Below are positions 12,285 through 49,040 of a DNA stretch of 64,000 nucleotides, piece after piece. Every line of letters begins with the position of its first letter. Positions within the stretch are counted from its first letter, which is position 1. The translations under genes and the position numbers were made by a program. The notes under the pieces are model-generated. The model searched no databases, was not told the DNA's origin, and saw only the letters and a list, made by a program, of their open reading frames with translations. Origin of the DNA: an uncultured Chloroflexia bacterium (GTDB lineage Bacteria; Chloroflexota; Limnocylindria; Limnocylindrales; CSP1-4); contig CAWBGT010000027.1 in assembly GCA_963788375.1 (NCBI GenBank), positions 679,020 to 743,019 of the forward strand, written 5' to 3'.

Positions 12285-12360
12285 TGGTGGAGCTAAAGGG
12301 ATTCGAACCCTTGACCTTCTGAATGCCATTCAGACGCTCTTCCAGCTGAGCTATAGCCCC
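12285..12360 (-). tRNA. tRNA-Ala (anticodon GGC), with encoded CCA.
   Basis: The cloverleaf was folded by hand: acceptor GGGGCUA with G3:U70, anticodon loop AUGGCAU, T-loop TTCGAAT. Confidence 0.9.
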
Positions 12361-12392: not shown

Positions 12393-13846
12393 TCAGCCGC
12401 CTCCGATTTCGGACTGGCCGTGCTGCAGCCACTCGGCCGTCCGGGGTGCCCAGCGCCCGTCCGGTTCAAGCAGGACCGCCAGACGGCGGAGGTCCGCCAG
12501 CGTGTCGACGTCCGGCCAGGACTCGACGTCGGCCACCTGCCAGCCGGCCGACGCGAGGCCGTTCCTTGCGGAATCGAACGCGGTGGTGCCGGCGGTGGCG
12601 CCATCGGTGAAGGCTCCCCTCAGCCTGGCCGCCAGGTTGCGCCGGACCCGGCGTCGGAATGGGGCCGGGGTTGTCCGCGGAAGCTGCCGCCAGCGGGCGC
12701 CGACCAGGTGGTAGCCGCCGTCCTCGGCAGGTCCCAGGACGGCACTTCGAGGGCCACGGGCGAGCACGGCCATCGCGGCCTCGATGCGGGCCGGCGGCAA
12801 CCCGGGCGCGTCACCCGCGACGGCGATGGCACGATCCGCGCCGCGGTCGAACGCCGCGAGGAAGACATCGGCAAGCGCCGCTCCCAGCCCCGGGCCCGTC
12901 TGGATGACCGGCGTCCAGGCCGGACCGATGATCCGGGCGACCGAGTCCACATCAGCGACGGACGGGAGCATGGCCATCGGGTTCCAGCGAGCGGATCGCG
13001 CCGCCGCGAGCGCGCCATCGGCGGCATCGGCCATGCAGGCGGTCCAGAAGGCCGTCGTGGCCTCGTCGCCGATCTCGGCGGCCAGGCGCGTCTTGGCCCG
13101 GCCCGGCCCGGGAGCCTTGACCATGAGGGCGAGGAGGGGTCGCGCCGCCGTCTCCGACCAGGCACGCCCGACCATGGCCCGGCCGGCCGCCACGGACGCT
13201 CGCAATGAGCCGGAGACCTTGCTCGTGCCGCCCCGGCGTCGCCGGAAACGGACCGGCACCTCCCGGTACCGGATGGTGGGCTCGGCGAGCACCCGCGCGA
13301 CCAGCTGGGTCGTCCAGCCGTAGCCCGCATCGTCGAGGTCGAGCCGGCCGAGGACGGGAGCGCGCAGGGCCTTGAACGGCGGCAGGTCGTGGACGATGCG
13401 CCCGGTCCGGATCGACATCACGGCGGCGACCAGGTCGTTGCCGAGCCGGGCATGCCAGGGCATCGCGCCGTCCTCGACCAGGCGACCCGGTCGCCTGCCG
13501 AACGCCACGTCCGCCGACCTCAGCGCCACGACCAGGGCCGGCAGGTCCGCAGGGTCGCAAGAACCGTCGCCGTCCAGGAACGCCACCCCGTCATGGGTGT
13601 GGCCGGACGTAGTGGGATCCAGGGCATGTTCGGCGCCGGTGAGGCAGGCGCGCCCGTAGCCGCGTCGCGGCTCGTCGATGAGGATGCCGCCTGCTTCCGC
13701 CGCAGCGCGCCGCGTCCCGTCGCGCGACCCACCGTCGACCACGAAGGCACAGCACGCCCCCGATGCGCGCATGCCGCGGACGACGGCCCCGATCGCGGTC
13801 TGCTCGTCGATGACCGGGATGACGGCGGCGATGGCCGGGCTCATGG
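12393..13846 (-). CDS. GT2 glycosyltransferase (TIGR04283-like), fused or translationally contiguous with a DUF2064 / TIGR04282-like nucleotidyltransferase-like domain.
   Basis: N-terminal 'MSPAIAAVIPVIDEQTAIGAVV...DGGSRDGT' is a GT-A fold motif. C-terminal 'LLALMVKAPGPGRAKTRL...AIAVAGDAPGLP...GGYHLVG' matches DUF2064. No stop separates the two domains, so they may be two genes if a frame error exists. ATG overlaps the upstream stop (ATGA). Confidence 0.65.
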
Positions 13847-15401
13847 TGTGGCCCCATCCGGCTCGGGTGCCCAGACGATGAACTCGCCATCGTCGACCAG
13901 CACCGCGCGATCCCCGGCCAGGAGCGAGGCGAGCATCTTGTCGTGGCGGTTCCGGGCCCGAAGCGTCGGCGACCATGGCGTGCGGTCCATGACGACATAC
14001 GCATTCGCGGGAGGGACCGGGCCGGCCATCAGGCGCCGGATGTCGGTTCGCGCGGCGAGTGGCGCCACCAGCCCCTCGTCTGCCGCAAGGATCGCTTCGG
14101 CAGGCACGATGGCGGCCGCCAACTCCAGTCCATCCAGCCGGGCAGGCCGGGCGGCGAACGCTGGGTCGCTCATGTCGAACGGCGGGATTGAGCCCTGGAC
14201 CCAGGCGCCGACCGCCGCCGGGATGATCAGCAGCAAGGCCAGCAGAGGAGCGAGCCGCCGGGTCTGGGAATCGGGGGCGCCGCGACCCGGCGCGTCCCGC
14301 GGTCGGCGACGCGGGCCCCGCCGCCACCTTCGCTCGGCGACCGCCAGTACCCGTCGCCCGCCGAACCCGGCGGCAACGATCAGCGGCACCACCAGGATCA
14401 GCCCGTACTGGAGCCGCAGGTTCGCCTGGAAGTCGTTGGCGGACAGGAGTGCGGCGGCCATCGGTGGCAGGGCCAGGAGCAGCCAGCGCGGACGGACCAG
14501 GGGCAGGCCGAGGAGGGCGACGACCATCCCGGCTGCGGCAAGCCACGGCGTGGCCCGGGCGATGTGGGCAACGACCGCGGCAGTCCGCTCGAACGGCGCC
14601 AGCAGGACGGCAAGCCCGCCGCCAAGCCAGGCGTAGTAGCGGTCGGTATCGGCCCCGGCGCCGTCGCGGATGGCCGGCATCACGAGGCCGAAGGCCGCGA
14701 TCGCCCAGGCGGCGGCCACGAGCACGAGGAACCGGCCCTGGCGGCGGGTCGAGCCGCGGCCCCGGACCGCCACCGCCAGTCCGACCACGGCGACCGCGTA
14801 GCCAACGTCCTCGCGGGTCGCGAGCGCCAGCAGCGCGAGCGCCCACATCGCGCGATGGCGCTTCGTGAGCCCCGCCCATCCGGCGAGGAGCGCGAGCGCG
14901 ATGCCCGCGGTCTCGGGATGGAAGTCGGCCCGGATGACGTCCTGTATCGTGCCCCACAGCGGGATCCCAATCGCCAGGACCGCGGCGAGCACCGGCCCGA
15001 ACTCGGCCGGGACGGAGCAGCGCGCGGAGGAACAGGAAGGTGGCCGGGATCAGCGCCGCGACCGACACGGCGTGGGCCAGGTTGAGGACGCGCACGTCCG
15101 GCCCGACGAGGCGCTCGATCGCGGCCGGGACCACCAGGATCGGCGAGAAGTGGAGCCCGAGGAACGACCCCTCGTGGAAGCTCGAGACCCAGCGACCGCT
15201 GTCGGCGACGTTCCAGACGACCTGCTGGAAGAAGGCCAGGTCGTATGGCGGGGCCGCGAGACCCACGGTGCGGCTCACGAGGAGTGCGGCCACCCAGGCC
15301 GCTGTCGCGATCGTCGCCAGCCCAACGAGGCCGGCCGGGATCGCCCCGCGCCCGAGCCCAGGGTTCACCCGGCTCCCGATCAGCCGGCCGCCGGAGCGGC
15401 G
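13842..15401 (-). CDS. DUF2079-family polytopic membrane protein, with an apparent frameshift near 15005.
   Basis: 'YDLAFFQQVVWNVADSGRWVSSFHEGSFLGLHFSPILV' is in the frame of the 1344-aa ORF. The continuation 'EFGPVLAAVLAIGIPLWGTIQDV...' is in the frame of ORF 13841..14992. Confidence 0.55.
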
Positions 15402-16418
15402 TGTCCGCTCGGAACGGGTCAGGAGTGGCTTCCCCGACGCGCGATAGCCATCCGCGATCCCCCGCGCCGCGGTCTCGATGGCCTGGGCAGCGGACAGCCG
15501 CGGCTCCCAGCCAAGGGCCCGCAGCGCCGAGGTCTCGAACTCGACATAGGGCGTGTCACCCGCCCAGCCGCCGCCACCGGGGCCGCGGCCCGCGTACGTC
15601 AGCTCGACCGACGCGGGCGCGAGTCCCAGGGCCTCGATCACGATCGCGGCCACGCGCTGGACGGTGACGGTCCCCTCGGTCCCGACGTTCAGGATCGTCA
15701 TCGGGGACCGCGCCGCCGCCGCAACTCCGCGCCGGATCCCGGCGACCAGGTCGTCCACGGCGATGTAGGGCTTCGCCTGGGTGCCGTCGCCCAGCATCTC
15801 GAGGCGGGTCGGGTCCCGCAGGAGCTTGACCACGAAGTCATGGACCACGCCATGGTTCGATCGCGGGCCGACCGTGTTGCCGAAGCGGAACGCGTGCGCC
15901 CGCCAGCCGTACAGGCTTGCGAAGCCCGAGATCAGCGCCTCGCCGGCAAGCTTCGCGGCCGCGTAGTGCGACTCCGGCAGCAGCGGGCCGTCGCCTTCCC
16001 CGGTCGGGATCCGGGCCGGGCGGCCGTAAACGACCCCGGAGGAGGCGAACCAGATCTCGTCAATCCCGACCGCGTGCATCGTCTCGCACACGAGTTCGGT
16101 GCCCACGACGCCGCTCGCGAAGTCCCGCTCGGGGTGGTCGAAGCCCCCGGCGATGTCTGTTCCCGATGCGAGGTGGACCACGCGACGGTGGCCGGCCATG
16201 GCGTCCCGGAGCGCGTCGCGGTCCGTGATGTCGCCGCGGACAAAGTCCAGGAGCGGGTCTCCGTCGAACCGGGTCGCCCAGTCCGGCTCCGCGGTCGAGA
16301 GGTTGTCGAAGACGGTGACGGGTGCCCCGTCACGCAGCAGCGATGCGACCACCTCGCCGCCGATGAACCCGGCGCCGCCGGTGACGAAGGTCCGGACCGG
16401 CTCCAGGCGGTCCGTCAT
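15402..16418 (-). CDS. NAD-dependent epimerase/dehydratase (SDR family). There is no in-frame stop before the DUF2079 region, so the 3' boundary is approximate.
   Basis: 'TFVTGGAGFIGGEVVASLL' Rossmann motif and an 'YAAAK' catalytic motif. ATG at 16418 overlaps the DoxX stop (ATGA). Confidence 0.7.
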
Positions 16419-16975
16419 CCGGGCCATCGGCGACGAGCGAGCGCCAGCCGGGCGTCAAGGCCGTGCCAGCGGCCGGCGCGGAAGACGGCGAGGCACAGGA
16501 GCGGCACCCATTCCACCGAGTACTCGTAGATCCACTTGTCGTTCCACAGCGTCGCGAACTGCAGGTGGAGCGCCATGCCCGCCGCGACCAGCGCCGCGAT
16601 CGGGGTGACCAGGCCCAGGATCAGCAGGACGCCGACGATCGTCTCGACCAGTCCCACCGAGAAGCCGAAGAACCCGAAGTTGGGCAGCACGACGCCCTCG
16701 ATGAAGGAGCGGTAGGGCTCGATCGGATGCGGCTGGGTGATCACCTCGTACTTGAGGATCGACTGGGCGCTGCGACCACCCTCGGCGTTGATGACGAACC
16801 CCAGCGGCGTGTCGGGCCACAGGTTCGGGACGGCCGGCAGGATCTTGGCCAGGCCGTTGTGCAGGAAGACCACGCCGAAGAAGATCCGCAGCGTGGCCAT
16901 CGCGCGGCCGAACCACAGCCCGGTCGCGATGGCGGCGATCGCCTCGGATTGCGCGCTGCGTGCGCTGGTTTCCAC
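16415..16975 (-). CDS. DoxX-family membrane protein.
   Basis: 'LRIFFGVVFLHNGLAKIL' and four predicted TM helices. Confidence 0.65.
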   Translation of the reverse strand: METSARSAQSEAIAAIATGLWFGRAMATLRIFFGVVFLHNGLAKILPAVPNLWPDTPLGFVINAEGGRSAQSILKYEVITQPHPIEPYRSFIEGVVLPNFGFFGFSVGLVETIVGVLLILGLVTPIAALVAAGMALHLQFATLWNDKWIYEYSVEWVPLLCLAVFRAGRWHGLDARLALARRRWPG

Positions 16976-17111
16976 GGATGCCCTCCCAGGAGCCTGAATT
17001 CAGTGAGCGTGTGGCTCCGACCTTAGCCCTGCCTCGTGACGCGCGGGTGACGATCCCGGGCGCCGACCCGGGCGCCGACCCGGGCGCCGACCCGGGTGGC
17101 CGCGCCGCCGC

Positions 17112-18251
17112 TCACCCGCAGACGAACCGGTCGAGCCTGGCCGGCCCCGATGCCAGGATCTCGTCCAGGCGCCGGCGGACCGCGACCAGCGCCTCGGCCA
17201 TCGACGAATCCGCCGGCAGGTCGAGCCGCATGTCGGGATCGTTGGACAGCGGGTGCCAGAACCAGCCCAGCGCATCGCAGGTCAGCTCGGGTGCGACGTC
17301 CTGGGGCCGGATGGGCTCGCCCTCCGAAGCGGCTCCGCGCAGCGCGATCGGCCGGAAGATCCGGTCGTCGGGCCGGATGCCGAAGTCGTCCGCCAGGCGG
17401 TGGAGGTGCGGGATCTCGTCGAGCGCCTCCTCGGGCAACGATGCCGCGAGCCGGACGCGGGCCCCGGCATCGACCAGGGTCCGGATCCCGCGCAGGGCGC
17501 CGGCATGGGCACCGCGGCCACGGTGGGCGTCGTGGCGCTCCGGCGTCACGGAATCGAGGCTCACCTGGAAGGCGATCGGCCGGCCGGCATCGATCAGCGG
17601 CCGGATCCGGTCCCAGCGCGGTCCGCGGAGCAGCATCGCGTTGGTGAGCAGCGTCAGCGGCAGGCGATCGGTCACGTAGGCGATCAGGTCGGCGATGTCG
17701 GGCCGCAGCGTCGGCTCGCCGCCGGTCACGAACACTGCGTCCATGCCGGCCCCAACGGCCTCGTCCACCAGGGCGCGGATCCGAGCGTCCGACAGGCGTC
17801 GCGGGTCGGCCTTCGGACCGGCAACCACGCAGCAGTAGTCGCAGGCGAGGTTGCAGTCGTAGTTGGTGTACAGCCACAGGCGGGTGGGCATGAACGACTC
17901 GCCTTGCGACACCGCCACGACCGCCTCGGCCCCACCCTCGTGTGCGCCGTCCGCCGGCCAGTCCGTCCGCGCCGGCCCCTTGCGCAGGTAGTGGAGGGTC
18001 CACCCGGGCCGCTCGGGATCGGGGATCACCGACAGTAGCCCGTGACGGCTCACGGCCTCGAAGGTCTGGAGCTGCCCGGTGAGCCGGTCGCTGGGGCTGG
18101 CGATTCGCACGATCTGGCCGTCGCGGATGCCGAGCAGCGCCCGATGGAGCGGCAGCAGGAGCCCGGACTCCAGGTCGGCCTCCGGGTCCTCGACCATGGC
18201 ATGGACGGGCAGCGCCCGGCCGCCGCCGTAGTTGGCCGGGTCGGCGGTCAC
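17112..18251 (-). CDS. Radical SAM enzyme with a ~120-aa N-terminal extension of unknown function.
   Basis: CxxxCxxC motif 'YTNYDCNLACDYCCV'. Glycine-rich SAM motif 'VFVTGGEPTL'. Start overlaps the upstream methyltransferase stop. Confidence 0.7.
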   Translation of the reverse strand: MTADPANYGGGRALPVHAMVEDPEADLESGLLLPLHRALLGIRDGQIVRIASPSDRLTGQLQTFEAVSRHGLLSVIPDPERPGWTLHYLRKGPARTDWPADGAHEGGAEAVVAVSQGESFMPTRLWLYTNYDCNLACDYCCVVAGPKADPRRLSDARIRALVDEAVGAGMDAVFVTGGEPTLRPDIADLIAYVTDRLPLTLLTNAMLLRGPRWDRIRPLIDAGRPIAFQVSLDSVTPERHDAHRGRGAHAGALRGIRTLVDAGARVRLAASLPEEALDEIPHLHRLADDFGIRPDDRIFRPIALRGAASEGEPIRPQDVAPELTCDALGWFWHPLSNDPDMRLDLPADSSMAEALVAVRRRLDEILASGPARLDRFVCG

Positions 18252-18889
18252 GGTTCCTTCCGCTCGACGCGGCGGAAGGTCGAGTACTGGAACTGCTGGG
18301 GGATCCCCGCCGGCGTGTGGTGGAGATACCGGCGGCTGTCCACCAGCCGGAAGCCCTCGCCGAGCTCCGCCGCGAGCGCATCGGGCTCGTAGCGCTGGAC
18401 CGGCATGCCGCTGCAGCGCTCGGGACCGTCGTCCGCGAAGGTCGCGATGATGGCCGTGCCCCCGTCGGGGATCGTTCGCCGGGCCAGGTCGGCGTAGCGC
18501 CGCCGGGCGTCTGGATCCAGGAGGAAGTGGAACGCCGCACGGTCGTGCCAGATGTCAAAGGCCCCCACGTCGTCGAGGACGGATGCATCGCCCACGATCC
18601 AGGCGATCCGCCCGGCGCGGTCGCCGAGCCGGTGGCGGGCCAGCGTCAGGGCCGCCTCGGAGATGTCGAGGACCGCGATCCGGTCGAGGTCGAGCTCGAG
18701 GAGGTGGTCCACCAGCCAGGACGCACCGCCGCCGATGTCGATGATGCTGCGCGCCCCACGCTCGATGGCGGCCGCCACCAGCTCCCGCGAGTTGAACGGA
18801 TCCGGCTCGTACCAGCCGACACCGGTCATCTCGCGCGTGGCGTAGATCCAGTCCCACGCGCTCGCCGGGGCTGTGGCTTCCGAGGACAC
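18248..18889 (-). CDS. Class I SAM-dependent methyltransferase.
   Basis: Motif I 'IIDIGGGASWLVDHL'. GTG start is preceded by AGGGAG. Confidence 0.7.
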   Translation of the reverse strand: MSSEATAPASAWDWIYATREMTGVGWYEPDPFNSRELVAAAIERGARSIIDIGGGASWLVDHLLELDLDRIAVLDISEAALTLARHRLGDRAGRIAWIVGDASVLDDVGAFDIWHDRAAFHFLLDPDARRRYADLARRTIPDGGTAIIATFADDGPERCSGMPVQRYEPDALAAELGEGFRLVDSRRYLHHTPAGIPQQFQYSTFRRVERKEP

Positions 18890-18994: not shown

Positions 18995-19435
18995 CTAGCC
19001 CGGGTCGGACGCGGGCTCCACCGGGAGGCCCGCCGCGGCCCACGCCTCGAACCCGCCGACGACGTCCGTGGCTCGATCGAAGCCGAGGTCGCGAAGGGTG
19101 GCCGCGGCCAGGCTCGAGCTGTAGCCATGGGCGCACAGCAGGACGATCCGGGCCGCTGGATCGGAGAGGCGCGGATCGTCGTGGCCCGACGCCGGATCGA
19201 GGCGCCAGTACAGGACCGACCACGGGACGTGGATCGAACCCGGGACCACGCCGGTCTCCCGTCGCAGCTCCGCGCACCGGGTGTCGACCAGGATGGCCCC
19301 GTCGTCGGCCATCGCCTTGTGGACATCCGCCGGCTCGAGCCGGTCAAGCCGCGCCCGCGCGTCGGCCAGGAGGTCGTTCACGGTCCGCCGTCGGTTCGGT
19401 GGGCCCCCGGCTTCGGTCGGCCGGTTGTCGCTCAT
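18995..19435 (-). CDS. Single-domain rhodanese (sulfurtransferase).
   Basis: 'ILVDTRCAELRRETGVVPGSIHVP...IVLLCAHGYSSSLAA' with an active-site Cys in the CAHG loop. ATG at 19435 is preceded by GGAGGAGAGG. Confidence 0.75.
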   Translation of the reverse strand: MSDNRPTEAGGPPNRRRTVNDLLADARARLDRLEPADVHKAMADDGAILVDTRCAELRRETGVVPGSIHVPWSVLYWRLDPASGHDDPRLSDPAARIVLLCAHGYSSSLAAATLRDLGFDRATDVVGGFEAWAAAGLPVEPASDPG

Positions 19436-26383: not shown

Positions 26384-26468
26384 TGGTGGGCCGGGGCGGA
26401 ATCGAACCGCCAAAGTCGAAGACGAGGGTTTTACAGACCCTTGGGCTCACCACCTGCCCGACCGACCC
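26384..26468 (-). tRNA. tRNA-Tyr (anticodon GTA), type II with a long variable arm, CCA encoded.
   Basis: Hand-folded: acceptor GGGTCGG/CCGGCCC, anticodon loop CTGTAAA, variable arm CGTCTTCGACTTT, T-loop TTCGATT. Confidence 0.85.
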
Positions 26469-26472
26469 ACGA

Positions 26473-26548
26473 TGGTGGAGATGAGGGGACTCGAACCCCT
26501 GGCCTCCGCGATGCGAACGCGGCGCTCTTCCAGCTGAGCTACATCCCC
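26473..26548 (-). tRNA. tRNA-Ala (anticodon CGC), CCA encoded.
   Basis: Hand-folded: acceptor GGGGAUG with G3:U70, anticodon loop TTCGCAT, T-loop TTCGAGT. It is 4 nt from tRNA-Tyr. Confidence 0.9.
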
Positions 26549-27627: not shown

Positions 27628-28914
27628 ATGGCTCGCACATCCGACGTCTCCGAGGCTCTCGCAACGCTCCAGGCTCGCTGGGGAGCGGCTGCTCCACGAC
27701 GTGGCGGCGACATGGGGCTCGTGGTCGAGGGCGCGCTGGCCAGGGCGCCGATGCCGGAGCCGGACTCGGAGTCGGATCGGGCCCCGGATCCGCTTGCGCC
27801 AACGCCACTCATGCCGGCCATCCGGCACCGTCCGGGGGTACCGGTCCCGGACGCGGACGGACGGATCGTTTCCACGGGGTTCGCGGAGCTGGACGCCATC
27901 CTGGGCATGGGCGGGCTGCCGCGCTCGGCCACGGTCGCGCTGCGTGGGGACGCGTCGTCGGGCAGGACCACGGTCGCGCTGCGGGTGGCGGCGGAGGCGC
28001 AGGCCGGCGGGGCGATCGTCGCGTGGCTGGACCTGGCCCGCGCCTTCGACCCCGTGGAGGCCGTCGCGCGTGGCATCCGGCCGGAGTGGCTGGTGGTGCT
28101 GACGCCCGTGGACCTGGAGGAGGCGCTCGCCATGGCGGGAGCCCTGCTGGCCGCCCGGACCGTGGACCTGCTGGTGATGGACCTGCCGGACGGCCGTGCC
28201 CCGGCGCTCGCCGGGAAGCGGGTGGGGGACCGGCTGAACCGGCTTGCCGCGCTGGCGAGACGGGCCGGGACGCTGCTCGTCGTCCTGGAGCCCGCGTCCC
28301 TCGGGCGGGGCCTGGCGGCCGCCGTGGAGGCGGCGAGCGGCCTGCGCCTGGAGCTTCGCCGGTCGGGCTGGATCCGCCTGGGCCGGGACGTCGTCGGGCA
28401 GCGAAGCGCCGTGGAGGTGGCCCGCAACCGGTACGGCCCGCCCGGCCGCCGCACCGTCCTCGAGATCCTGTACGCGGAGGGCGGTCCACGGGATGCATGC
28501 CTGCTCCGCCCGGAGCTGCTGGCCGGGCTTGCCGCCCCGGTCGCGCCTCCGGGGACAAGGACTGCGGCTGGCCCGCCGGCAACCGCCGTGCCACCGGCAC
28601 TCACCGATCTGAAAGGCCCCCCGGCATCGATCGATACCCATGCGCCTGCTGCACCTGCTCTGGCCACACCTGCCCCTGCTCCTGGCGAGGACACGGATGG
28701 AGGCACCGACCCCGGGGAGCCACGGCTCCTTGTCGGACGGCACCTCCGGCTCGTGGCCGCCCGGCCCGATCGTCCTCGGCGGCCAACCCTGGATGGACGG
28801 GACCGTGGTGGACGCGGATCCCCTCGCCCGGGCCCTCGGCGTGCGCCGGGGGATCCCGCTCGGGAGCGCCCACCGGCTCGCGCCCGAGGCGACCTTCCTG
28901 GACCTCGCGCCTGA
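27628..28914 (+). CDS. imuA: ImuA' (RecA-fold SOS mutasome accessory protein) with a low-complexity C-terminal tail.
   Basis: RecA/KaiC-like core 'STGFAELDAILGMGGLPRSATVALRGDASSGRTTVALRVAAEAQAGGAIVAWLD'. LexA box upstream. imuB and dnaE2 downstream. Confidence 0.65.
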   Translation: MARTSDVSEALATLQARWGAAAPRRGGDMGLVVEGALARAPMPEPDSESDRAPDPLAPTPLMPAIRHRPGVPVPDADGRIVSTGFAELDAILGMGGLPRSATVALRGDASSGRTTVALRVAAEAQAGGAIVAWLDLARAFDPVEAVARGIRPEWLVVLTPVDLEEALAMAGALLAARTVDLLVMDLPDGRAPALAGKRVGDRLNRLAALARRAGTLLVVLEPASLGRGLAAAVEAASGLRLELRRSGWIRLGRDVVGQRSAVEVARNRYGPPGRRTVLEILYAEGGPRDACLLRPELLAGLAAPVAPPGTRTAAGPPATAVPPALTDLKGPPASIDTHAPAAPALATPAPAPGEDTDGGTDPGEPRLLVGRHLRLVAARPDRPRRPTLDGRDRGGRGSPRPGPRRAPGDPARERPPARARGDLPGPRA

Positions 28915-29953
28915 CGCGGACCGGGACGCGGTCGAAGCCGCCTGCGAGCGGCTTGCCACGTTCAGTCCCGGGATTGCCGGCACGAGCGACGTCACGGATC
29001 CCTCGTTCGGTCGGATCGCCGTCCACGTCGACGGCCTGACGCGCCTGTGGGGCGTGGAGGAGACGCTGGTCGCGCGGATGACGGCGGCGCTTGCCCCGGT
29101 CCTCCCGGGCCGGCCCCGTGCCGGCATCGCTGGGACAGCCTTCGCCGCCTCCGTGGCCGCCGCGCACGCGCAGGAGGGCGGCCCCCCGCTCCTGGTCCCG
29201 CCCGGCGACGACGACCGGTTCCTCGCACCCTACCCGGCGGGGCTGCTCACGCGGGACCCGGACGTGCGGGCGCGACTCGCCCGCTTCGGGCTCCGGTCGA
29301 TCGGGGCCGTGGCGGAGCTCTCGCGCTCCGCGCTGGTGGCGCGCTTCGGCGAGGAGGGAGCGAGGATCCACGCGCATGCCCGCGGGGAGGAGACGGAGCG
29401 GTTCCAGCCGCGCAGGGCCCCGGAGCGGATGGTCCTCGGCCTCTCGCTGGAGCCGTCGGCAGAGGGCCTCGAGGCGGTCCGGTTCGTGCTCCGCCGGCTC
29501 GCGGCGGCATTGGCGGAGCAGCTCGCGACGCGCGGGCGCGCGGCGGGGCTGGCGCGACTCGTCGTCACCCACGACCTGGCCTTCGCGCGTCGCGGGACGC
29601 CGCCGGAGCTCCGCCTCGAGCAGCGGTTCCCGGAGCCAACGGCGGATGCCGAGGCCATCGAGCGCCTCCTCGTCGCCCGTCTCGAGCAGATCCCGCCGCC
29701 GGCCGCCGTGGCGCGTCTCGAGCTGGAGCTGGCGCTGGTGGAGCCTGCCCGGGGCCAGCAGCTCCCGCTGTTCACCCCGCAGGCGGCACGGGACGCACGT
29801 CTCGGCTGGCAGCTGGCGCGCCTGGCGATCGCGTTCGGGTCGGACCGGGTGCGGAGGGTGGAGCTGGCCGACACCGAGGCCCCGCTCGCCGAGGCCCGCT
29901 GGCGCTGGCATGCCGTTGCCGGGGCGGCGGTGGTGGGCGAGGAACGGCGATGA
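28640..29953 (+). CDS. imuB: ImuB, a catalytically inactive Y-family polymerase paralog of the SOS mutasome.
   Basis: DinB-like fold regions ('IAVHVDGLTRLWGVEETLVARM...', 'FGLRSIGAVAELSRSALVARFG'). Position between imuA' and dnaE2. Start is uncertain and overlaps the imuA' 3' tail. Confidence 0.75.
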   Translation: MRLLHLLWPHLPLLLARTRMEAPTPGSHGSLSDGTSGSWPPGPIVLGGQPWMDGTVVDADPLARALGVRRGIPLGSAHRLAPEATFLDLAPDADRDAVEAACERLATFSPGIAGTSDVTDPSFGRIAVHVDGLTRLWGVEETLVARMTAALAPVLPGRPRAGIAGTAFAASVAAAHAQEGGPPLLVPPGDDDRFLAPYPAGLLTRDPDVRARLARFGLRSIGAVAELSRSALVARFGEEGARIHAHARGEETERFQPRRAPERMVLGLSLEPSAEGLEAVRFVLRRLAAALAEQLATRGRAAGLARLVVTHDLAFARRGTPPELRLEQRFPEPTADAEAIERLLVARLEQIPPPAAVARLELELALVEPARGQQLPLFTPQAARDARLGWQLARLAIAFGSDRVRRVELADTEAPLAEARWRWHAVAGAAVVGEERR

Positions 29954-32403: not shown

Positions 32404-35400
32404 GTGGCCCCTCCTCCCTACGCCGAGCTGCACTGCCACAGCCACTTCTCGTTCCTGGACGGGGCGTCCGCTCCCGACGATCTCGTTGCCCAAGCCGTGG
32501 AGCTGGGGCTGGCCGGTCTCGCCATCACGGACCACCAGGGCCTGTACGGGGCCGTCCGGTTCTCCGCCGCCGCGGAGGCCGCGGGGCTGCGCCCGGTGAT
32601 CGGGATCGAGGTGGAGCTCGTCGATGCGGCGGTGCCGGACCCTGCCGGGATCGTGGTGCCGGCGAGGCGTGCATGGAAGCCGGGGCGTCGAGCGCCCGTC
32701 CAGCCCGAGGCACCCCGGGTGATCGACGGCCGTCCTGTCCGCCCTCGCCCCGAGCGCGCCCGGCTGCCGGGCCATCGGCAGGTGGTCAAGGAGGATCACC
32801 GGGGAGTCGGCGAGGCGCAGCGTGGCCCGCACCTGGTCCTGCTGGCGCGCGACGCGACGGGCTGGCGGAGCCTGTGCCGGCTGGTGTCGCGGGCGAACCT
32901 AGCCGGCACGAAGGCGGTCCCCGGGTTCAGCCAGGCTCTCCTGGCCGAGCACGCCGAGGGGCTGATCGCGCTGTCTGGCTGCCGCCACGGGGAGGTGGCG
33001 AGACGCCTTCGGGCGGGGGATCGCGAGGGGGCGCGGGCCGTGGCGGAGCGGTACGCGGTGCTGTACGGGCCGCGCGGCACGGGCGGTGGAAGGGGCACGA
33101 GCGGTGGAATGGGCGCGGCCGGGGGCGCGGCGGGGGGGCCGGCCGCCGCCGGCTTCGTCCTGGAGCTCACGCACCACCTGCTGCCCGACGACGACTGGCT
33201 CGCATCCGAGACCGCGCGCCTGGCCGAGGAGCTGGGGCTGCCGGTGGTGGTCACCAACGACGTCCACTACGCCCTCCCCGAGGGCCGCGAGCTGCAGGAC
33301 GTCCTGACCGCGATCCGGCACGGACGGTCCCTGTCGGACCTGGCGGACCTGCGCCGGCCGGACGGGGAGTCGTATATCAAGGGTGCGCCGGAGCTCCTTG
33401 CCCTGCCACCCGGGGAGCCGGCCACCGAGGCCGCCGACCCGGTGCTGGCCCGGGCATGGCGGGCAGGGATCGCGGCATCGGTCGAGATCGCCGCGGCCTG
33501 CCGGGTCGAGCTGGCGTTCGAGCGCTACCGCTTCCCGGGCTTCGCCGTACCGAAGGGGCAGACGCCGTTCAGCCACCTGTCTGAGCTGTGCTGGGAGGGC
33601 GCCCGGCGCCGGTATCACCCGCTCACGCCGGCCGTGCTCCGGCAGCTGGCCCACGAGCTGGACGTCATCGAGCGGACCGGCCTCGCGGAGTTCTTCCTCA
33701 TCTGCTGGGACCTGATGCAGTTCGCGAAGTCGCGTGGCATCCCGGCGCAGGGACGGGGGAGCGCGGCGGGTTCGATCGTGACCTACGTGCTGGGTATCGC
33801 GCGGGTGGACCCGATCCGTCACGAGCTGCTGTTCGAGCGGTTCATCAACGAGGGGCGGACGGCCTACCCGGACGTCGACATCGACTTCTCCTCCGAGCGG
33901 CGGGAGGAGGTGATCCAGTACGTCTACGAGAAGTACGGCCCCGAGCACACCGGGATGGTCTGCAACCTCGTCACGTACCGGGCCCGGTCGGCGGTCCGCG
34001 AGGTGGGGCGCGCGCTGGGGTTCCCGGGACCGCTGGTGGACCGGGTGGCGAAGGCGCTCGAGACGTACGACTCGGTGATGGTGCGGCGGGACCTGGAGGC
34101 CGAGGGCGGGTTTGGGGCGTTCTTCGCGCAGCCGGGCGAGGGCACGGGCGGGGGCACGGGCGGGGGACCCTCGGACGCCGTGCGGGGCTCGCGACGGGTC
34201 GTGGCCGAGCTGGAGGTGGCCCGCGCGGCCGCCCTGACCGGCGAGCGCGGGCTCACGGACTCGATGGGGCAGCTCAACCACGCGCGTGGCGGGCGGCTCG
34301 GGATGGACCTCGCGGCGGCCAGCGGGACCTGGGCGGGCGCTCCAGGCTCAGCACCTGCGATCCGGCCCGGTGGGCGGGCTGACGACGAGGGCGGTCCGGG
34401 TGACACCCCGGCCAGCGTCGCCTGGCTGCGGGCGGGCCGTGGGACCGGATCCAGCGTCGCCCGCATCGGGCCGGAGCCCGTGAAGGTCCCGGACCCGGCC
34501 CCGGACTCGGTCCCGGACCCGGCACGCCACGAGGGATCCGTCGCGGGCCTCTCGGACTGGGAGCGCTGGCTGGAGCTGTGCGCCCGCATCGACGGCTTCC
34601 CTCGCCACCTCTCGATCCACAGCGGCGGCATGCTGGTGACCGCAGCCCCCCTCATCGACATCGCCCCCATCGAGCGGGCGACCATGCCGGGGAGGGTCGT
34701 CGTCCAGTTCGACAAGCGCGACGTCGAGACGATGAAGCTGATCAAGCTCGACCTGCTCGGCCTCGGCATGCTCGCCGCCATCGACGAGACGGTCCAGCTC
34801 ATCGAGCACGACTGCGCCGTCTGCCTGGACCTCGACCGCCTGCCGGAAGAGGTCCCCGAGGTCTTCGCCATGCTCCAGGCGGCGGACACCGTGGGCGTGT
34901 TCCAGGTCGAGAGCCGGGCGCAGATGCAGACCCTGCCCAAGTCGCGTCCGGCCAGCCTCGACGACCTGGTGGTGGAGGTGGCGATCATCCGGCCGGGCCC
35001 GATCCAGGGGAACGCTGTCCACCCGTACCTGCGTCGCAAACAGGGCCTGGAGCCGGTCACGTACCTCCATCCCAGCCTGGAGCCGATCCTCCACGACACC
35101 CTGGGCGTGATCCTCTATCAGGAGCAGGTGATGAAGATCGCGATCGACGTCGCGGGGTTCACGCCTGCGGGCTCCGACGGGTTCCGGCGGGCGATGGGGA
35201 CGTATCGCTCCGCCGGCGAGATGGAGCGGCTCCACGTGGAGTTCGTCGAGGGTTGCCGACGCGTCCATGGGATCCCGCCCGACGACGCCGAGGAGCTGTT
35301 CCGCCGCTGTGCCGCATTCGCCTCGTTCGGGTTCGCGAAGAGTCACGCCGCGGCGTTCGCCCGGACCGCGTACGAGTCCAGCTTCCTCAAGCTGTTCTAC

Positions 35401-48848: not shown

Positions 48849-49040
48849 GGTGGCTGATCTCCGTTCCGTGTGTGTGCGAGTGAATCACGACGCGCGCGAG
48901 CGAAGCCTGCCCGAGGCGCGACGGCGAATGGTAGCAGAGCCGCCCCGAATCGGGCCAGCCGTGATTTAGGGTTGGGACGGTGGCAGCGCCGATCGGCTAA
49001 CCTCGGGTCCGAGTTGGCCGAAGGGGAGATCGCGGGCCCG

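What the first reader, a model, noticed from the sequence alone, without database searches (positions are those of the whole stretch)
12393..18889. Seven-gene minus-strand cluster: methyltransferase, radical SAM, DoxX, epimerase, DUF2079, GT2 and DUF2064
A class-I SAM methyltransferase is translationally coupled to a radical SAM enzyme. These are followed head to tail by a DoxX membrane protein, an NAD-dependent sugar epimerase/dehydratase, a DUF2079 polytopic membrane protein and a GT2 glycosyltransferase fused to a DUF2064 domain. Gene junctions overlap by 4 nt (ATGA/GTGA), which indicates a single operon. The GT2+DUF2064 pair resembles the uncharacterised 'rSAM-associated glycosyltransferase' pairing. 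No product is known for such a neighbourhood, and the mix of membrane, sugar-activating and radical/methyl chemistry suggests synthesis of a modified envelope glycoconjugate or lipid. The cluster is inserted between leuS/tRNA-Ala and a rhodanese gene.
Basis: partly seen in the sequence, partly recalled or inferred. Interest (0 to 1): 0.7.

Follow-up and report, generated by a model that had tools for sequence, protein, structure and literature searches.

The report
Envelope sugar-decoration operon with radical SAM enzyme
This is a conserved operon of an uncultured soil Chloroflexota bacterium that most likely activates an unusual sugar, loads it on a lipid carrier and attaches it to the cell envelope; its nearest studied relative appears to be the methylthio-xylose capping pathway of the tuberculosis bacillus, and here it is joined to an orphan radical SAM enzyme.

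Summary
The genes are real and sit at the stated coordinates. There are six genes, not seven: methyltransferase, radical SAM, DoxX, SDR epimerase, DUF2079 and a GT2–DUF2064 fusion. They remove the epimerase stop codon, break DUF2079 and create a false 1344-aa ORF. Close relatives have both genes intact.

DUF2079 models as a GT-C glycosyltransferase. The radical SAM is Rv1681-like and carries a cysteine-less TusA-fold N-domain.

- Across 29 Limnocylindria loci the radical SAM stays beside DoxX, epimerase, DUF2079 and GT2/DUF2064 through at least three rearrangements.
- Of 52 distant loci in three phyla, 30 have both DUF2064 and GT2 within 10 kb.
- Starting from DUF2064 instead, the widespread core is DoxX–GT2–DUF2064–GT-C, and the radical SAM is an optional add-on.

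The logic matches the M. tuberculosis methylthioxylose pathway (MtxS GT2, MtxT GT-C). The mapping of DUF2064 to Rv0540 and of the epimerase to GalE3 rests on my memory, because the key paper was not available. The arsenosugar names fail the curated cut-offs.

Verdict: a genuine, conserved and uncharacterised variant of a known type of pathway. The product is unknown. Interest is moderate to high.

The parts
18995..19435 (-). Single-domain rhodanese (active-site loop CAHGYSS). It is a context gene about 105 nt upstream of the methyltransferase and probably not a core part of the system.
   Evidence: tblastn with the L002 rhodanese gives 80% identity over residues 1-142. L002, L003 and L004 show it upstream (Pfam Rhodanese). 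A rhodanese homologue is found in 4 of the 29 Limnocylindria-type loci counted; L006 and L011 carry it elsewhere in the locus.
18248..18889 (-). Class I SAM methyltransferase, 213 aa. Its stop codon overlaps the radical SAM start codon (GTGA).
   Evidence: Pfam Methyltransf_25 36.9 bits; only weak hits to TPMT and Se/Te methyltransferase models. Overlap shown. Present in 20 of 29 Limnocylindria loci, absent from the 61-69% identity subclade. A 42%-identical homologue recurs 2.3 kb from the radical SAM in Chloroflexales loci L060 and L073.
17112..18251 (-). Radical SAM enzyme, 379 aa, Rv1681-like. The single CxxxCxxC motif is C133/C137/C140 (about 17832-17855). There is no SPASM or twitch cysteine cluster. 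The C-terminus FVCG is invariant in this clade.
17976..18209 (-). N-terminal TusA/SirA-fold domain of the radical SAM (about residues 15-92). It lacks the persulfide-carrying cysteine: GLLLPLH replaces TusA's GLxCPxP (the TusA motif is recalled from memory).
17055..17096 (.). Perfect 12-nt x3.5 tandem repeat (CCCGGGCGCCGA) in the 136-nt spacer between the radical SAM and DoxX.
   Evidence: Tandem Repeats Finder: 100% matches, score 84; sequence shown. The spacer length varies among relatives (31 nt in L002, about 100 nt in L004).
16415..16975 (-). DoxX/DoxD-family small polytopic membrane protein, 186 aa.
   Evidence: Pfam DoxX 40.9 bits and DoxD 37.6 bits. It travels with the glycosylation block when the locus is rearranged (L001, L008, L011, L012, L014, L021). 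It is the first gene of the DoxX-GT2-DUF2064-GT-C cassette in 30 of 43 metagenome loci.
15380..16427 (-). NAD-dependent SDR sugar-nucleotide epimerase (GalE-like; ASSGVVYG and YAAAK motifs). It is 348 aa if the extra G at 15405/15406 is removed. As assembled it has no stop codon and reads into DUF2079.
   Evidence: Pfam Epimerase 138 bits; NCBIfam GalE 105 bits and RmlB 96 bits, both below their cut-offs. Alignment with L005 and L002 locates the 1-nt insertion and the restored stop at 15382-15380.
15405..15406 (-). One extra G (GG where L005 has a single G). It shifts the epimerase frame 23 nt before its stop codon.
   Evidence: DNA alignment of the window with L005; coordinates and restored reading frame.
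13841..15368 (-). DUF2079 polytopic membrane protein with a predicted GT-C glycosyltransferase fold. It is 508 aa after correction (GTG start at 15368). As assembled it is split at 15003 into an N-terminal part in the epimerase frame and a 383-aa C-terminal ORF (14992..13841).
15003..15003 (-). One extra A relative to L002 and L005. This is the frameshift inside DUF2079.
   Evidence: DNA alignments. Removing it gives LLRPGRFGPVLAAVLAI, which matches LFRPSRFGPALAAVLAI in L002.
12393..13844 (-). GT2-DUF2064 fusion protein, 483 aa. The GT2 domain (about 13844-13140) is of the polyprenyl-phosphate-sugar-synthase type. The DUF2064 domain (about 13139-12396) is CofC/MobA-like and is a putative nucleotidyltransferase. 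ATGA overlap with DUF2079.
   Evidence: Pfam Glycos_transf_2 40 bits and DUF2064 55 bits. NCBIfam AglJ 77, Dol-P-hexose transferase 41, PpgS 33, TIGR04282 89 (cut-off 134), TIGR04283 25 (cut-off 182). PDB 3cgx 'putative nucleotide-diphospho-sugar transferase' E 6e-13. Invariant KxPxxGxxKTRL, DxP and DGGY motifs are retained. The same fusion occurs in relatives at 493-495 aa.
12285..12360 (-). tRNA-Ala(GGC), the downstream boundary of the cluster, followed by a terminator-like hairpin and leuS.
   Evidence: ARAGORN; terminator-like site at 12260-12233; leuS Pfam hits.

Best explanation
The locus encodes a lipid-carrier-dependent pathway that decorates an envelope polymer with a dedicated, probably unusual sugar.

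**Proposed steps**
1. The DUF2064 domain (CofC/MobA-like) converts a sugar-1-phosphate and an NTP into a nucleotide sugar. *Inferred.*
2. The SDR enzyme epimerises the nucleotide sugar. *Inferred from family.*
3. The fused GT2 domain transfers the sugar to polyprenyl phosphate on the cytoplasmic face. *Inferred from family-level similarity to AglJ, DPM1 and PpgS.*
4. The lipid-linked sugar reaches the outer face. The DoxX protein always accompanies the cassette. It may be the membrane partner or flippase, a role played elsewhere by GtrA or Rv3632. *Pure inference.*
5. DUF2079, a GT-C-fold enzyme, transfers the sugar to an extracytoplasmic acceptor. *The fold is shown; the activity is inferred.*

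**Closest model and the radical SAM module**
- This is the logic of the M. tuberculosis 5-methylthio-D-xylofuranose (MTX) capping pathway, so the sugar may be a 5-deoxy-5-substituted pentose derived from a nucleoside such as methylthioadenosine.
- The Rv1681-like radical SAM, with its translationally coupled methyltransferase in this subclade, is a lineage-variable accessory module. It either makes or tailors the nucleoside or nucleotide-sugar precursor.

**State of this copy**
In this assembly the epimerase stop codon and the DUF2079 frame are each disrupted by a 1-nt insertion. This is more likely a long-read consensus error than a recent loss of function.
For: **Gene content and folds**
- Domain content.
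- The DUF2064 catalytic-type motifs are conserved.
- GT2 and DUF2064 are fused in Limnocylindria. Elsewhere they are adjacent or overlapping genes (L037, L063, L080). This argues for consecutive steps.

**Linkage of the radical SAM to the glycosylation block**
- 29 Limnocylindria-type loci: DoxX in 25, epimerase in 23, DUF2079 in 21, DUF2064 in 23, GT2 in 21. Most absences are at contig ends. At least three arrangements occur: collinear, block upstream, and divergent.
- 52 distant loci (Anaerolineae, Chloroflexales, Actinomycetota and one Polyangiaceae): 30 carry both DUF2064 and GT2 within 10 kb, 22 carry DoxX-like genes and 16 carry GT87 GT-C genes.
- Reverse test from DUF2064 in 43 metagenome loci of at least 5 kb: GT2 in 39, GT-C in 32, DoxX in 30, radical SAM in 6. 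Spacing is fixed: DoxX at -1.3 kb, GT2 at -0.7 kb, GT-C at +1.0 kb.

**Characterised analogue**
- MtxS (Rv0539) makes decaprenyl-phospho-MTX and MtxT (Rv0541c) transfers MTX to LAM.
- Rv0535, nearby, is the MTA phosphorylase.

**Hints that the substrate is a nucleoside or nucleotide**
- The best structural neighbours of the radical SAM are BlsE and MoaA.
- Actinobacterial homologues are fused to what reads, by eye, as a metallophosphoesterase-type domain (not scanned against a family library).
- NUDIX genes lie near the radical SAM in 14 of 52 distant loci.
- A DeoD-like nucleoside phosphorylase sits directly upstream of the methyltransferase and radical SAM in L017, and near the radical SAM or the cassette in L033, L119 and L136.

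**Frameshifts as probable artefact**
- Relatives L001, L002 and L005 have intact genes.
- The broken frames still have high GC3 and no internal stop codons.
- Other long-read contigs show breaks in different genes of the same cluster: the L004 epimerase, the L007 methyltransferase and L043.
Against: - No direct comparison with the M. tuberculosis MtxS, Rv0540 or MtxT sequences was possible. That Rv0540 is DUF2064-like and that GalE3 (Rv0536) is the epimerase come from my memory of Angala et al. 2017, which the library does not hold.
- The GT-C here is DUF2079, not GT87 like MtxT.
- No nucleoside phosphorylase was found in the window with the one query available.
- The epimerase is GalE-like, so an ordinary hexose is equally compatible.
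- The DUF2064 domain scores below the TIGR04282 cut-off, and the radical SAM below the Rv1681 cut-off.
- The radical SAM is absent from most DUF2064 cassettes, so its role may be peripheral.
- Large genes elsewhere in the window are intact, so two indels within 400 nt could be real mutations.
Confidence: 0.55

Rival explanations
1. This is an ordinary three-component hexose glycosylation system of the GtrB/ArnC plus GT-C type, using for example polyprenyl-P-glucose, -mannose or -GalNAc. The SDR is a plain 4-epimerase and DUF2064 has some auxiliary role. The methyltransferase and radical SAM pair is a separate function that merely shares the neighbourhood or its regulation.
For: - The best named GT2 hits are hexose transferases (AglJ, Dol-P-hexose transferase, PpgS), and the epimerase is closest to GalE.
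- Most DUF2064 cassettes lack the radical SAM (6 of 43).
- The methyltransferase occurs in only one subclade.
Against: - The radical SAM stays with the block through at least three independent rearrangements and in three phyla.
- In L025-L027 the radical SAM and the Rv1679/Rv1680 homologues bracket the glycosylation genes on one strand.
- DUF2064 is fused to the GT2 and keeps its catalytic-type motifs, so it is not a passenger.
- A hexose pathway would not need a dedicated nucleotidyltransferase of an unusual family.
Confidence: 0.2
2. Two independent modules lie side by side. The first (rhodanese, methyltransferase, radical SAM, DoxX) is a membrane-associated sulfur, thiol or quinone redox or organosulfur module. 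It would resemble DoxX-SseA in M. tuberculosis and the Rv1679-Rv1681 genes. The second is a glycosylation module.
For: - Sulfur-handling neighbours recur:
  - A TusA-fold domain on the radical SAM.
  - A rhodanese in the window.
  - A DsrE-like CPPC protein in 9 distant loci, directly upstream of the radical SAM in L060, L073, L066 and L081.
  - DinB/MST-like proteins, and pyridine-nucleotide-disulfide oxidoreductases.
- L030, L031, L033 and L047 have radical SAM, DoxX and an acyl-CoA dehydrogenase without visible glycosylation genes.
- The Rv1680-like protein resembles selenate- and sulfonate-binding proteins, and the acyl-CoA dehydrogenase resembles SfnB, DszC and desulfinases.
Against: - DoxX is the first gene of the glycosylation cassette in 30 of 43 loci that mostly lack the radical SAM. 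It also moves with the epimerase, not the radical SAM, when the locus is rearranged.
- The TusA-like domain has no cysteine.
- The rhodanese is adjacent only in the nearest relatives.
- A sulfur theme is compatible with the main explanation if the sugar carries sulfur, as MTX does.
Confidence: 0.15
3. This is an arsenosugar or arsenolipid biosynthesis system, as the NCBI names of TIGR04282 and TIGR04283 imply. The methyltransferase would act as ArsM and the radical SAM as ArsS.
For: - The architecture is parallel: methyltransferase, radical SAM, a DUF2064-type protein and a GT2.
- Proteins passing the TIGR04282 and TIGR04283 cut-offs flank a homologue of this radical SAM in Streptomyces.
Against: - ArsS model: 46.8 bits against a cut-off of 300, covering only the generic core.
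- No ArsM hit for the methyltransferase.
- TIGR04282: 89 against 134. TIGR04283: 25 against 182.
- There is no Cys-rich or selenocysteine C-terminal domain.
- No ars genes were noticed in the window, although this was not searched exhaustively.
Confidence: 0.05
4. This is a peptide (RiPP) maturation system: the radical SAM and methyltransferase modify a small precursor peptide, and the glycosyltransferases decorate it.
For: After Rv1681, the next-best NCBIfam and PDB hits for the radical SAM include peptide maturases: the mycofactocin maturase, SkfB, SuiB and PqqE.
Against: - There is no SPASM or twitch cysteine cluster.
- The N-terminal domain has a TusA fold, not the peptide-recognition (RRE) fold I would expect in a maturase; that expectation is from general knowledge.
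- The genes upstream of the methyltransferase or radical SAM differ between relatives, and no shared non-cluster ORF of 80 aa or more was found. Smaller ORFs were not examined.
- The partners (GT-C, a polyprenyl-phosphate-type GT2) point to lipid-linked glycosylation.
Confidence: 0.03

Closest known systems
M. tuberculosis methylthioxylose (MTX) capping pathway of lipoarabinomannan (MtxS Rv0539, MtxT Rv0541c, with Rv0535 MTA phosphorylase nearby; Angala et al. 2017)
   Same: - A cytoplasmic GT2 makes a polyprenyl-phosphate sugar and a GT-C enzyme transfers it outside the membrane (for MtxS and MtxT; for the window).
- A dedicated nucleotidyltransferase-like protein and an SDR epimerase are encoded alongside. 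That Rv0540 and GalE3 fill these roles in M. tuberculosis is from memory and was not verified here.
- The related cassette in other phyla uses GT87-family GT-C proteins. That MtxT belongs to GT87 is from memory.
   Different: - The GT-C here is DUF2079, not GT87.
- GT2 and DUF2064 are fused.
- A DoxX protein is an integral part of the cassette.
- No MTA phosphorylase lies in the cluster.
- A radical SAM and a methyltransferase are attached.
- The host is Chloroflexota, and the acceptor cannot be LAM.
- The sugar is unknown.
Arsenosugar pathway (ArsM methyltransferase, ArsS radical SAM TIGR04167) with the 'rSAM-associated transferases' TIGR04282 and TIGR04283
   Same: - The gene logic is the same: methyltransferase, radical SAM, a DUF2064-type protein and a GT2.
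- ArsS's product is a 5'-substituted 5'-deoxyadenosine, formally analogous to methylthioadenosine (established knowledge, not tested here).
- Proteins passing the TIGR04282 and TIGR04283 cut-offs sit next to a homologue of this radical SAM in Streptomyces.
   Different: All four window proteins fail the curated cut-offs or have no hit. The radical SAM belongs to a different family (Rv1681-like) and has no Cys-rich or selenocysteine domain.
Rv1679-Rv1680-Rv1681 gene trio of M. tuberculosis (NCBIfam NF049984, NF049985, NF049973; function unknown)
   Same: - The radical SAM's best family hit by far is NF049973, matching profile positions 3-325 of 326 and including the N-terminal domain.
- Deeper Limnocylindria relatives carry the acyl-CoA dehydrogenase and SBP-like homologues on the same strand, directly after GT2/DUF2064.
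- Proteins passing all three cut-offs are adjacent in Pseudonocardia L033.
   Different: - The window's radical SAM scores 269 bits against a cut-off of 380.
- The acyl-CoA dehydrogenase and the SBP-like protein are absent from the window.
- In this subclade a methyltransferase takes their place. The two sets were never seen together in the 29 loci.
Three-component periplasmic glycosylation systems (GtrA/GtrB/Gtr-type; ArnC/ArnT; PpgS/Rv3632/Rv3779)
   Same: A GT2 polyprenyl-phosphate-sugar synthase, a small polytopic membrane protein and a GT-C transferase are encoded together.
   Different: The small membrane protein belongs to the DoxX/DoxD family, not GtrA. There are extra DUF2064, SDR, radical SAM and methyltransferase genes.

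Membership tests
MTX (methylthioxylose) pathway, M. tuberculosis type | A GT2 that forms a polyprenyl-phosphate pentose (MtxS orthologue) | tested here: inconclusive
   The GT2 domain resembles polyprenyl-phosphate-sugar synthases only at family level: AglJ 77 bits, Dol-P-hexose transferase 41, PpgS 33. No MtxS sequence or model was available for direct comparison.
MTX (methylthioxylose) pathway, M. tuberculosis type | A GT-C transferase of the MtxT (GT87) type | tested here: not met
MTX (methylthioxylose) pathway, M. tuberculosis type | A nucleotidyltransferase-like protein and an SDR epimerase encoded with the transferases | tested here: met
   DUF2064 (CofC-like; PDB 3cgx) and the epimerase are present. 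That Rv0540 and Rv0536 are the M. tuberculosis counterparts is from memory, as Angala 2017 is not held.
MTX (methylthioxylose) pathway, M. tuberculosis type | An MTA or nucleoside phosphorylase supplying pentose-1-phosphate | tested here: not met
   tblastn with the L033 DeoD-like phosphorylase found nothing in the window. The gene is present next to the methyltransferase and radical SAM in relative L017. A distant MTAP elsewhere in the genome cannot be excluded.
MTX (methylthioxylose) pathway, M. tuberculosis type | The product is 5-deoxy-5-methylthio-xylofuranose on an envelope glycan | not testable with these tools
   This needs glycan chemistry.
Arsenosugar biosynthesis (ArsM/ArsS/TIGR04282/TIGR04283) | ArsS radical SAM (TIGR04167, cut-off 300 bits) with a Cys-rich or selenocysteine C-terminal domain | tested here: not met
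   46.8 bits over residues 125-263 only. There is no Cys-rich C-terminus.
Arsenosugar biosynthesis (ArsM/ArsS/TIGR04282/TIGR04283) | TIGR04282 (cut-off 134) and TIGR04283 (cut-off 182) transferases | tested here: not met
   89.1 and 24.7 bits. Pfam DUF2064 is met at 55.1 bits against 25.8.
Arsenosugar biosynthesis (ArsM/ArsS/TIGR04282/TIGR04283) | ArsM arsenite methyltransferase | tested here: not met
   No ArsM model appears among the NCBIfam hits of the methyltransferase at E<=0.01.
Rv1681 family radical SAM (NF049973) and the Rv1679-81 trio | Score of at least 380 bits against NF049973 | tested here: not met
   269.3 bits, matching profile positions 3-325 of 326, and the best hit by a wide margin. 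The Pseudonocardia L033 protein scores 528.
Rv1681 family radical SAM (NF049973) and the Rv1679-81 trio | Adjacent Rv1679-type acyl-CoA dehydrogenase and Rv1680-type SBP-like protein | tested here: not met
   No acyl-CoA dehydrogenase hit in the window and no SBP hit. Both are present in relatives L025-L027, L030 and L031.
GT-C glycosyltransferase superfamily (for DUF2079) | GT-C membrane fold with an acidic residue in the first external loop | tested here: met
Three-component Gtr-type glycosylation system | A GtrA-family small flippase-like protein | tested here: not met
   The small membrane protein is DoxX/DoxD. It is analogous in position only.
TusA/SirA sulfur-carrier family (N-domain of the radical SAM) | The TusA fold together with the conserved CPxP cysteine | tested here: not met

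The most novel reading that the evidence does not exclude
The Rv1681-like radical SAM could work like ArsS but on a chalcogen. It would attach the 5'-deoxyadenosyl group of SAM to a sulfur (or selenium) species, and the coupled methyltransferase would methylate that atom.

This would give a polyamine-independent, de novo route to methylthioadenosine or an analogue. The DUF2064-epimerase-GT2-GT-C cassette would then convert the analogue into a lipid-linked 5-thio- or methylthio-pentose that decorates the envelope of Chloroflexota, Actinomycetota and Acidobacteriota-like soil bacteria.

By extension, the orphan M. tuberculosis genes Rv1679-Rv1681 would belong to MTX or methylsulfoxy-xylose metabolism.

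Circumstantial support:
- The parallel with ArsM/ArsS/TIGR04282/TIGR04283.
- Recurrent TusA-fold, DsrE-like and rhodanese neighbours.
- An SBP-like protein resembling selenate- and sulfonate-binding proteins, and an SfnB/DszC-like flavoenzyme.
- The methyltransferase and the acyl-CoA dehydrogenase plus SBP pair appear to be mutually exclusive alternatives.
Probability: 0.15. Interest if true: 0.85.

Novelty: new variant of a known kind. Interest (0 to 1): 0.55.

Why it matters
If the reading is right, lipid-linked transfer of a nucleoside-derived pentose is not a mycobacterial curiosity. To my knowledge this chemistry has so far been demonstrated only for the MTX cap of tuberculosis LAM. A DoxX–GT2–DUF2064–GT-C cassette would instead be widespread in soil bacteria of several phyla.

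The analysis gives concrete, testable functions to four 'unknown' families:
- DUF2064 as the nucleotidyltransferase.
- DUF2079 as a GT-C transferase.
- The cassette DoxX as a membrane partner.
- The Rv1681-family radical SAM as a precursor-making or tailoring enzyme.

It also suggests that the orphan M. tuberculosis genes Rv1679–Rv1681 are functionally tied to this kind of glycan modification. That can be tested directly in cultured mycobacteria and Streptomyces.

It cautions against taking the database name 'arsenosugar biosynthesis glycosyltransferase' as evidence of arsenic metabolism. At least one soil metagenome study reads TIGR04282 that way.

Tried and rejected
- **Exact-sequence look-ups.** Look-ups of the window's radical SAM found no contig on record. 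Context had to come from homologues.
- **Literature.** Searches for DUF2064, DUF2079, Rv1681 with radical SAM, and arsenosugar with ArsS and glycosyltransferase returned nothing. Papers citing TIGR04282 or TIGR04167 only repeat database names. Angala 2017 and Palcekova 2024 are not held. One search was wasted on 'MTX', which mostly means methotrexate.
- **Horizontally inserted island.** Rejected. GC and skew are uniform and the flanks are the same in relatives at 86% identity.
- **Arsenosugar system.** Rejected on the curated cut-offs.
- **RiPP system.** Rejected: no auxiliary cysteine cluster, an N-domain with a TusA fold (not the peptide-recognition fold I would expect), and variable upstream neighbours.
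- **Real epimerase-DUF2079 fusion or programmed frameshift.** Rejected. Both anomalies are single-base insertions absent from L002 and L005, and together they give +2, so they do not compensate.
- **Sequence search of DUF2079 against the PDB.** Found nothing. Only the fold comparison worked.
- **Promoter and terminator scan.** Uninformative inside the cluster.
- **Other cluster components in the window.** tblastn for the acyl-CoA dehydrogenase, GT87, NUDIX, DinB, TMEM260-like, DsrE, nucleoside phosphorylase and SBP homologues was negative.
- **Direct comparison with M. tuberculosis Mtx proteins.** Not possible.

Full report
**Source and layout**

The window is 72% G+C. Homologues of its proteins come almost entirely from uncultured Chloroflexota labelled Limnocylindria or Limnocylindrales.

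The following genes lie on the minus strand between 18889 and 12393.

| Gene | Coordinates | Notes |
|---|---|---|
| Class I methyltransferase | 18889..18248 | 213 aa; stop overlaps the next start (GTGA) |
| Radical SAM | 18251..17112 | 379 aa |
| Spacer | 136 nt | holds a perfect 12-nt x3.5 tandem repeat (17055-17096) |
| DoxX | 16975..16415 | overlaps the epimerase start by 13 nt |
| SDR epimerase | starts at 16427 | no stop codon as assembled |
| DUF2079 | see below | frame-broken as assembled |
| GT2–DUF2064 fusion | 13844..12393 | ATGA overlap with DUF2079 |

tRNA-Ala(GGC) and leuS follow downstream. A rhodanese lies upstream on the same strand.

There are six genes, not seven, and only two of the junctions are 4-nt overlaps.

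The ORF list shows a 1344-aa ORF from 16427 to 12393. Its translation has four parts:
- a good epimerase;
- the first ~125 residues of DUF2079;
- about 380 residues of Arg/Pro/Gly-rich out-of-frame sequence;
- GT2–DUF2064.

The rest of DUF2079 is in another frame (14992..13841). The Pfam DUF2079 match is split between the two frames, as is the tblastn match of an intact homologue.

DNA alignment with the closest relatives (L005, radical SAM 87% identical; L002, 86%) shows two single-base insertions in the window.
- An extra G at 15405/15406 lies 23 nt before the epimerase stop codon.
- An extra A at 15003 lies inside DUF2079.

Removing both restores a 348-aa epimerase ending at TGA 15382-15380, and a 508-aa DUF2079 starting at GTG 15368. 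These lengths match the relatives (349-357 and 501-530 aa). The public annotation of the source contig calls only the 383-aa remnant (P0121).

*Evidence that this is an assembly error:*
- The broken frames remain open and keep a coding-like GC3.
- Contigs from similar long-read assemblies show breaks in different genes of this same cluster: the L004 epimerase, the L007 methyltransferase, and L043 throughout.

*Evidence that it could be real:* the other large genes in the window (leuS, dnaE-type polymerase, comEC, gap, pgk) are intact.

I lean towards an error but cannot decide without the reads.

**Is it a system?**

I scanned one genome per species with a profile of the radical SAM. I then scored the 80 loci, plus four found by exact look-up, with tblastn.

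*Limnocylindria-type loci (29 non-redundant loci, radical SAM at least 60% identical).*

| Gene within 10 kb | Loci (of 29) |
|---|---|
| DoxX | 25 |
| Epimerase | 23 |
| DUF2079 | 21 |
| DUF2064 | 23 |
| GT2 | 21 |

Nearly all absences are at contig ends. Several arrangements occur:
- collinear, as in the window;
- glycosylation block upstream of the methyltransferase and radical SAM (L012, L015, L021);
- divergent, with DUF2079 relocated (L001, L008, L011, L014).

Persistence through rearrangement is good evidence of functional linkage.

The methyltransferase is present only where the radical SAM is at least 70% identical (20 of 29 loci). In the deeper subclade (L025-L027, with partial versions in L028, L030 and L031) it is absent. 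There the genes after GT2/DUF2064, on the same strand, are homologues of an Rv1679-type acyl-CoA dehydrogenase and an Rv1680-type SBP-like protein. The methyltransferase and this pair were never seen together.

*Distant loci (52 loci, radical SAM about 40% identical).* These come from Anaerolineae, Chloroflexales, Actinomycetota and one Polyangiaceae.

| Gene within 10 kb | Loci (of 52) |
|---|---|
| DUF2064 and GT2 both | 30 |
| DoxX-like | 22 |
| GT87-type GT-C | 16 |
| Rv1679-type acyl-CoA dehydrogenase | 16 |
| Pyridine-nucleotide-disulfide oxidoreductase | 15 |
| NUDIX | 14 |
| DinB-like | 12 |
| DsrE-like CPPC protein | 9 |

In Streptomyces alboflavus, proteins passing the TIGR04282 and TIGR04283 cut-offs lie immediately upstream of the radical SAM.

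*Reverse test.* I scanned metagenome contigs with a DUF2064 profile. In 43 loci of at least 5 kb, mostly 55-60% G+C soil contigs, the spacing is very regular: DoxX at −1.3 kb, GT2 at −0.7 kb, DUF2064 at 0 and GT-C at +1.0 kb. The counts are GT2 39, GT-C 32 and DoxX 30. Only 6 of the 43 contain the radical SAM, and 5 of those also carry the acyl-CoA dehydrogenase and the SBP-like protein.

The widespread core is therefore DoxX–GT2–DUF2064–GT-C. The radical SAM is an optional module that depends on the core. The window is a variant in which GT2 and DUF2064 are fused, the GT-C is DUF2079 instead of GT87, and an epimerase is included.

**The individual proteins**

*GT2 domain.* Its best named matches are polyprenyl-phosphate-sugar synthases (AglJ, Dol-P-hexose transferase, PpgS).

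*DUF2064.* It is CofC/MobA-like. It matches the structural-genomics entry 3cgx, 'putative nucleotide-diphospho-sugar transferase'. It keeps the invariant KxPxxGxxKTRL, DxP and DGGY motifs.

*Epimerase.* Its S/Y/K motifs are GalE-like and lack the Asp-Glu pair of 4,6-dehydratases. This is read directly from the sequence and from family knowledge.

*Radical SAM.*
- It has one CxxxCxxC motif and no auxiliary cluster motif.
- NCBIfam places it nearest the Rv1681 family: 269 bits against a cut-off of 380, with the next family at 77 bits and ArsS at 47 against 300.
- The family is small, with 92 clusters at 50% identity below E 1e-30.
- In several actinobacterial homologues the rSAM ORF extends upstream into what reads, by eye, as a metallophosphoesterase-like region; this comes from stop-to-stop ORFs and was not scanned or checked for a separate gene.
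- Many Chloroflexi versions have no N-domain and a separate DsrE-like gene directly upstream.

**Comparison with what is known**

A paper found while checking a remembered M. tuberculosis cluster states two things. MtxS (Rv0539) forms the C50-phosphate-linked methylthio-D-xylose. [quoted passage not shown] A 2025 PNAS paper confirms that an Rv0539 deletion abolishes MTX caps. Rv0535 is the M. tuberculosis MTA phosphorylase.

From my memory of Angala et al. 2017, which the library does not hold, the proposed route is:
1. methylthioadenosine;
2. methylthioribose-1-phosphate;
3. NDP-methylthioribose;
4. C-3 epimerisation to NDP-MTX;
5. decaprenyl-P-MTX;
6. LAM.

In that model Rv0540 is the nucleotidyltransferase-like candidate and GalE3 (Rv0536) the epimerase candidate. 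The authors also noted conservation of the machinery in other Actinobacteria.

The window's cassette has exactly this set of activities. The same logic explains why DUF2064/GT2 pairs accompany ArsS. From established knowledge, ArsS makes a 5'-substituted 5'-deoxyadenosine, an analogue of MTA.

I could not compare sequences with the M. tuberculosis proteins. The claim is therefore 'works like', not 'is a member'. On membership:
- the GT87 criterion is not met in the window;
- no phosphorylase was found in the window;
- a DeoD-like nucleoside phosphorylase does sit directly upstream of the methyltransferase and radical SAM in relative L017, and near the radical SAM or the cassette in L033, L119 and L136.

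**Role of the radical SAM and methyltransferase**

Two readings remain open.
- *Tailoring a nucleoside or nucleotide sugar.* Supported by the structural neighbours BlsE and MoaA, the apparent phosphoesterase fusions and the NUDIX neighbours.
- *Making the 5'-substituted nucleoside itself, as ArsS does.* Supported by the ArsM/ArsS-like pairing, the recurrent sulfur-trafficking neighbours, an SBP-like protein related to selenate- and sulfonate-binding proteins, and an SfnB/DszC-like flavoenzyme.

Neither can be decided in silico.

A rival view makes radical SAM–DoxX a separate sulfur or quinone module. It is weakened because DoxX belongs to the glycosylation cassette even where the radical SAM is absent.

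The arsenosugar and RiPP readings fail specific tests.

**Verdict**

The cluster is real, conserved and uncharacterised. It is best described as a new variant of the polyprenyl-phosphate-dependent, MTX-type glycan decoration pathway, coupled to an Rv1681-like radical SAM. In this assembly it carries two probably artefactual frameshifts.

Interest is moderate to high for three reasons:
- it assigns testable roles to DUF2064, DUF2079, the cassette DoxX and the Rv1681 family;
- it links the orphan M. tuberculosis genes Rv1679–81 to this chemistry;
- several cultured carriers exist for experiments.

Noticed in passing
window 17055-17096: A perfect 12-nt x3.5 tandem repeat (CCCGGGCGCCGA) lies just downstream of the radical SAM stop codon, in a spacer whose length varies between relatives (31 to about 136 nt). 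Its function is unknown. It could be a hairpin or attenuator, or a slippage-prone site.
   Followed up: partly
window 28640-29953 and 32404-36531: An ImuB-like Y-family polymerase domain protein (Pfam IMS) and a 1375-aa DnaE-type polymerase lie close together on the plus strand. This resembles an imuB-dnaE2 mutagenesis cassette.
   Followed up: no
window 38155-41787 and 48870-52595: Two large multidomain proteins: a 1210-aa ORF with a lamin-tail domain and an OB fold, and a 1241-aa protein with zinc ribbons, an adenylate/guanylate cyclase domain and an AAA_16 ATPase domain.
   Followed up: no
window 26384-26548: tRNA-Tyr(GTA) and tRNA-Ala(CGC) are adjacent on the minus strand.
   Followed up: no
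L080 5527-7044 (Streptomyces alboflavus): A second, 505-aa protein with a CNLKCTPC radical-SAM-type motif matches no NCBIfam family. It lies next to a small MauE/DoxX-like membrane protein (CGCFG motif) in the same cluster as TIGR04282, TIGR04283 and the Rv1681-like radical SAM. Homologues recur in 8 other actinobacterial loci (L039, L040, L051, L059, L083, L084 and others).
   Followed up: partly
L080, L040, L036, L059, L053 (about 600 nt upstream of the radical SAM core): In these Actinomycetota the Rv1681-like radical SAM core is preceded in the same open frame by a region that reads, by eye, as a calcineurin-like metallophosphoesterase domain (HMVHGS...CTHSGLPW...GKPANDG). It was not scanned against a family library, and a separate upstream gene is not excluded. 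In Pseudonocardiaceae (L033, L047) the N-domain instead looks TusA-like by eye.
   Followed up: partly
L060 9583-9942; also L073, L066, L078, L081, L037, L048, L065, L070: A 119-aa DsrE/DsrF-family protein with a CPPC motif is found in 9 distant loci. It lies immediately upstream of the N-domain-less radical SAM in L060, L073, L066 and L081, and within a few kb in the others. It resembles the DsrE-like UxxC selenoprotein family listed in PMC13188914.
   Followed up: partly
L025-L028, L030, L031 versus L001-L022: Within Limnocylindria the methyltransferase and the Rv1679-like acyl-CoA dehydrogenase plus Rv1680-like SBP pair were never seen together next to the radical SAM cluster. This suggests they are alternative accessory modules.
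   Followed up: partly
L032 10001-10453; L043; L007 193-773: Long-read MAG contigs carry damaged copies: a fragment covering only radical SAM residues 229-379 (L032), a copy of the whole cluster with matches broken up in several genes (L043, from the same MAG as L007), and a frame-broken methyltransferase (L007). This bears on how far single-base frame breaks in such assemblies can be trusted.
   Followed up: partly
L001 7650-9176; also L008, L010, L012, L023, L029, L032: A TMEM260_N/DUF2723-type protein (which I recall as another GT-C-like family) is found within 10 kb of the cluster in 7 Limnocylindria-type loci (counting the L032 fragment), but not in the window.
   Followed up: no
bioRxiv 10.1101/2023.11.02.563126: A soil metagenome survey interprets TIGR04282 abundance as an arsenic or stress-tolerance marker purely from the family name. 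The present data show that DUF2064/TIGR04282-type genes mostly sit in DoxX-GT2-GT-C cassettes without ArsS.
   Followed up: no
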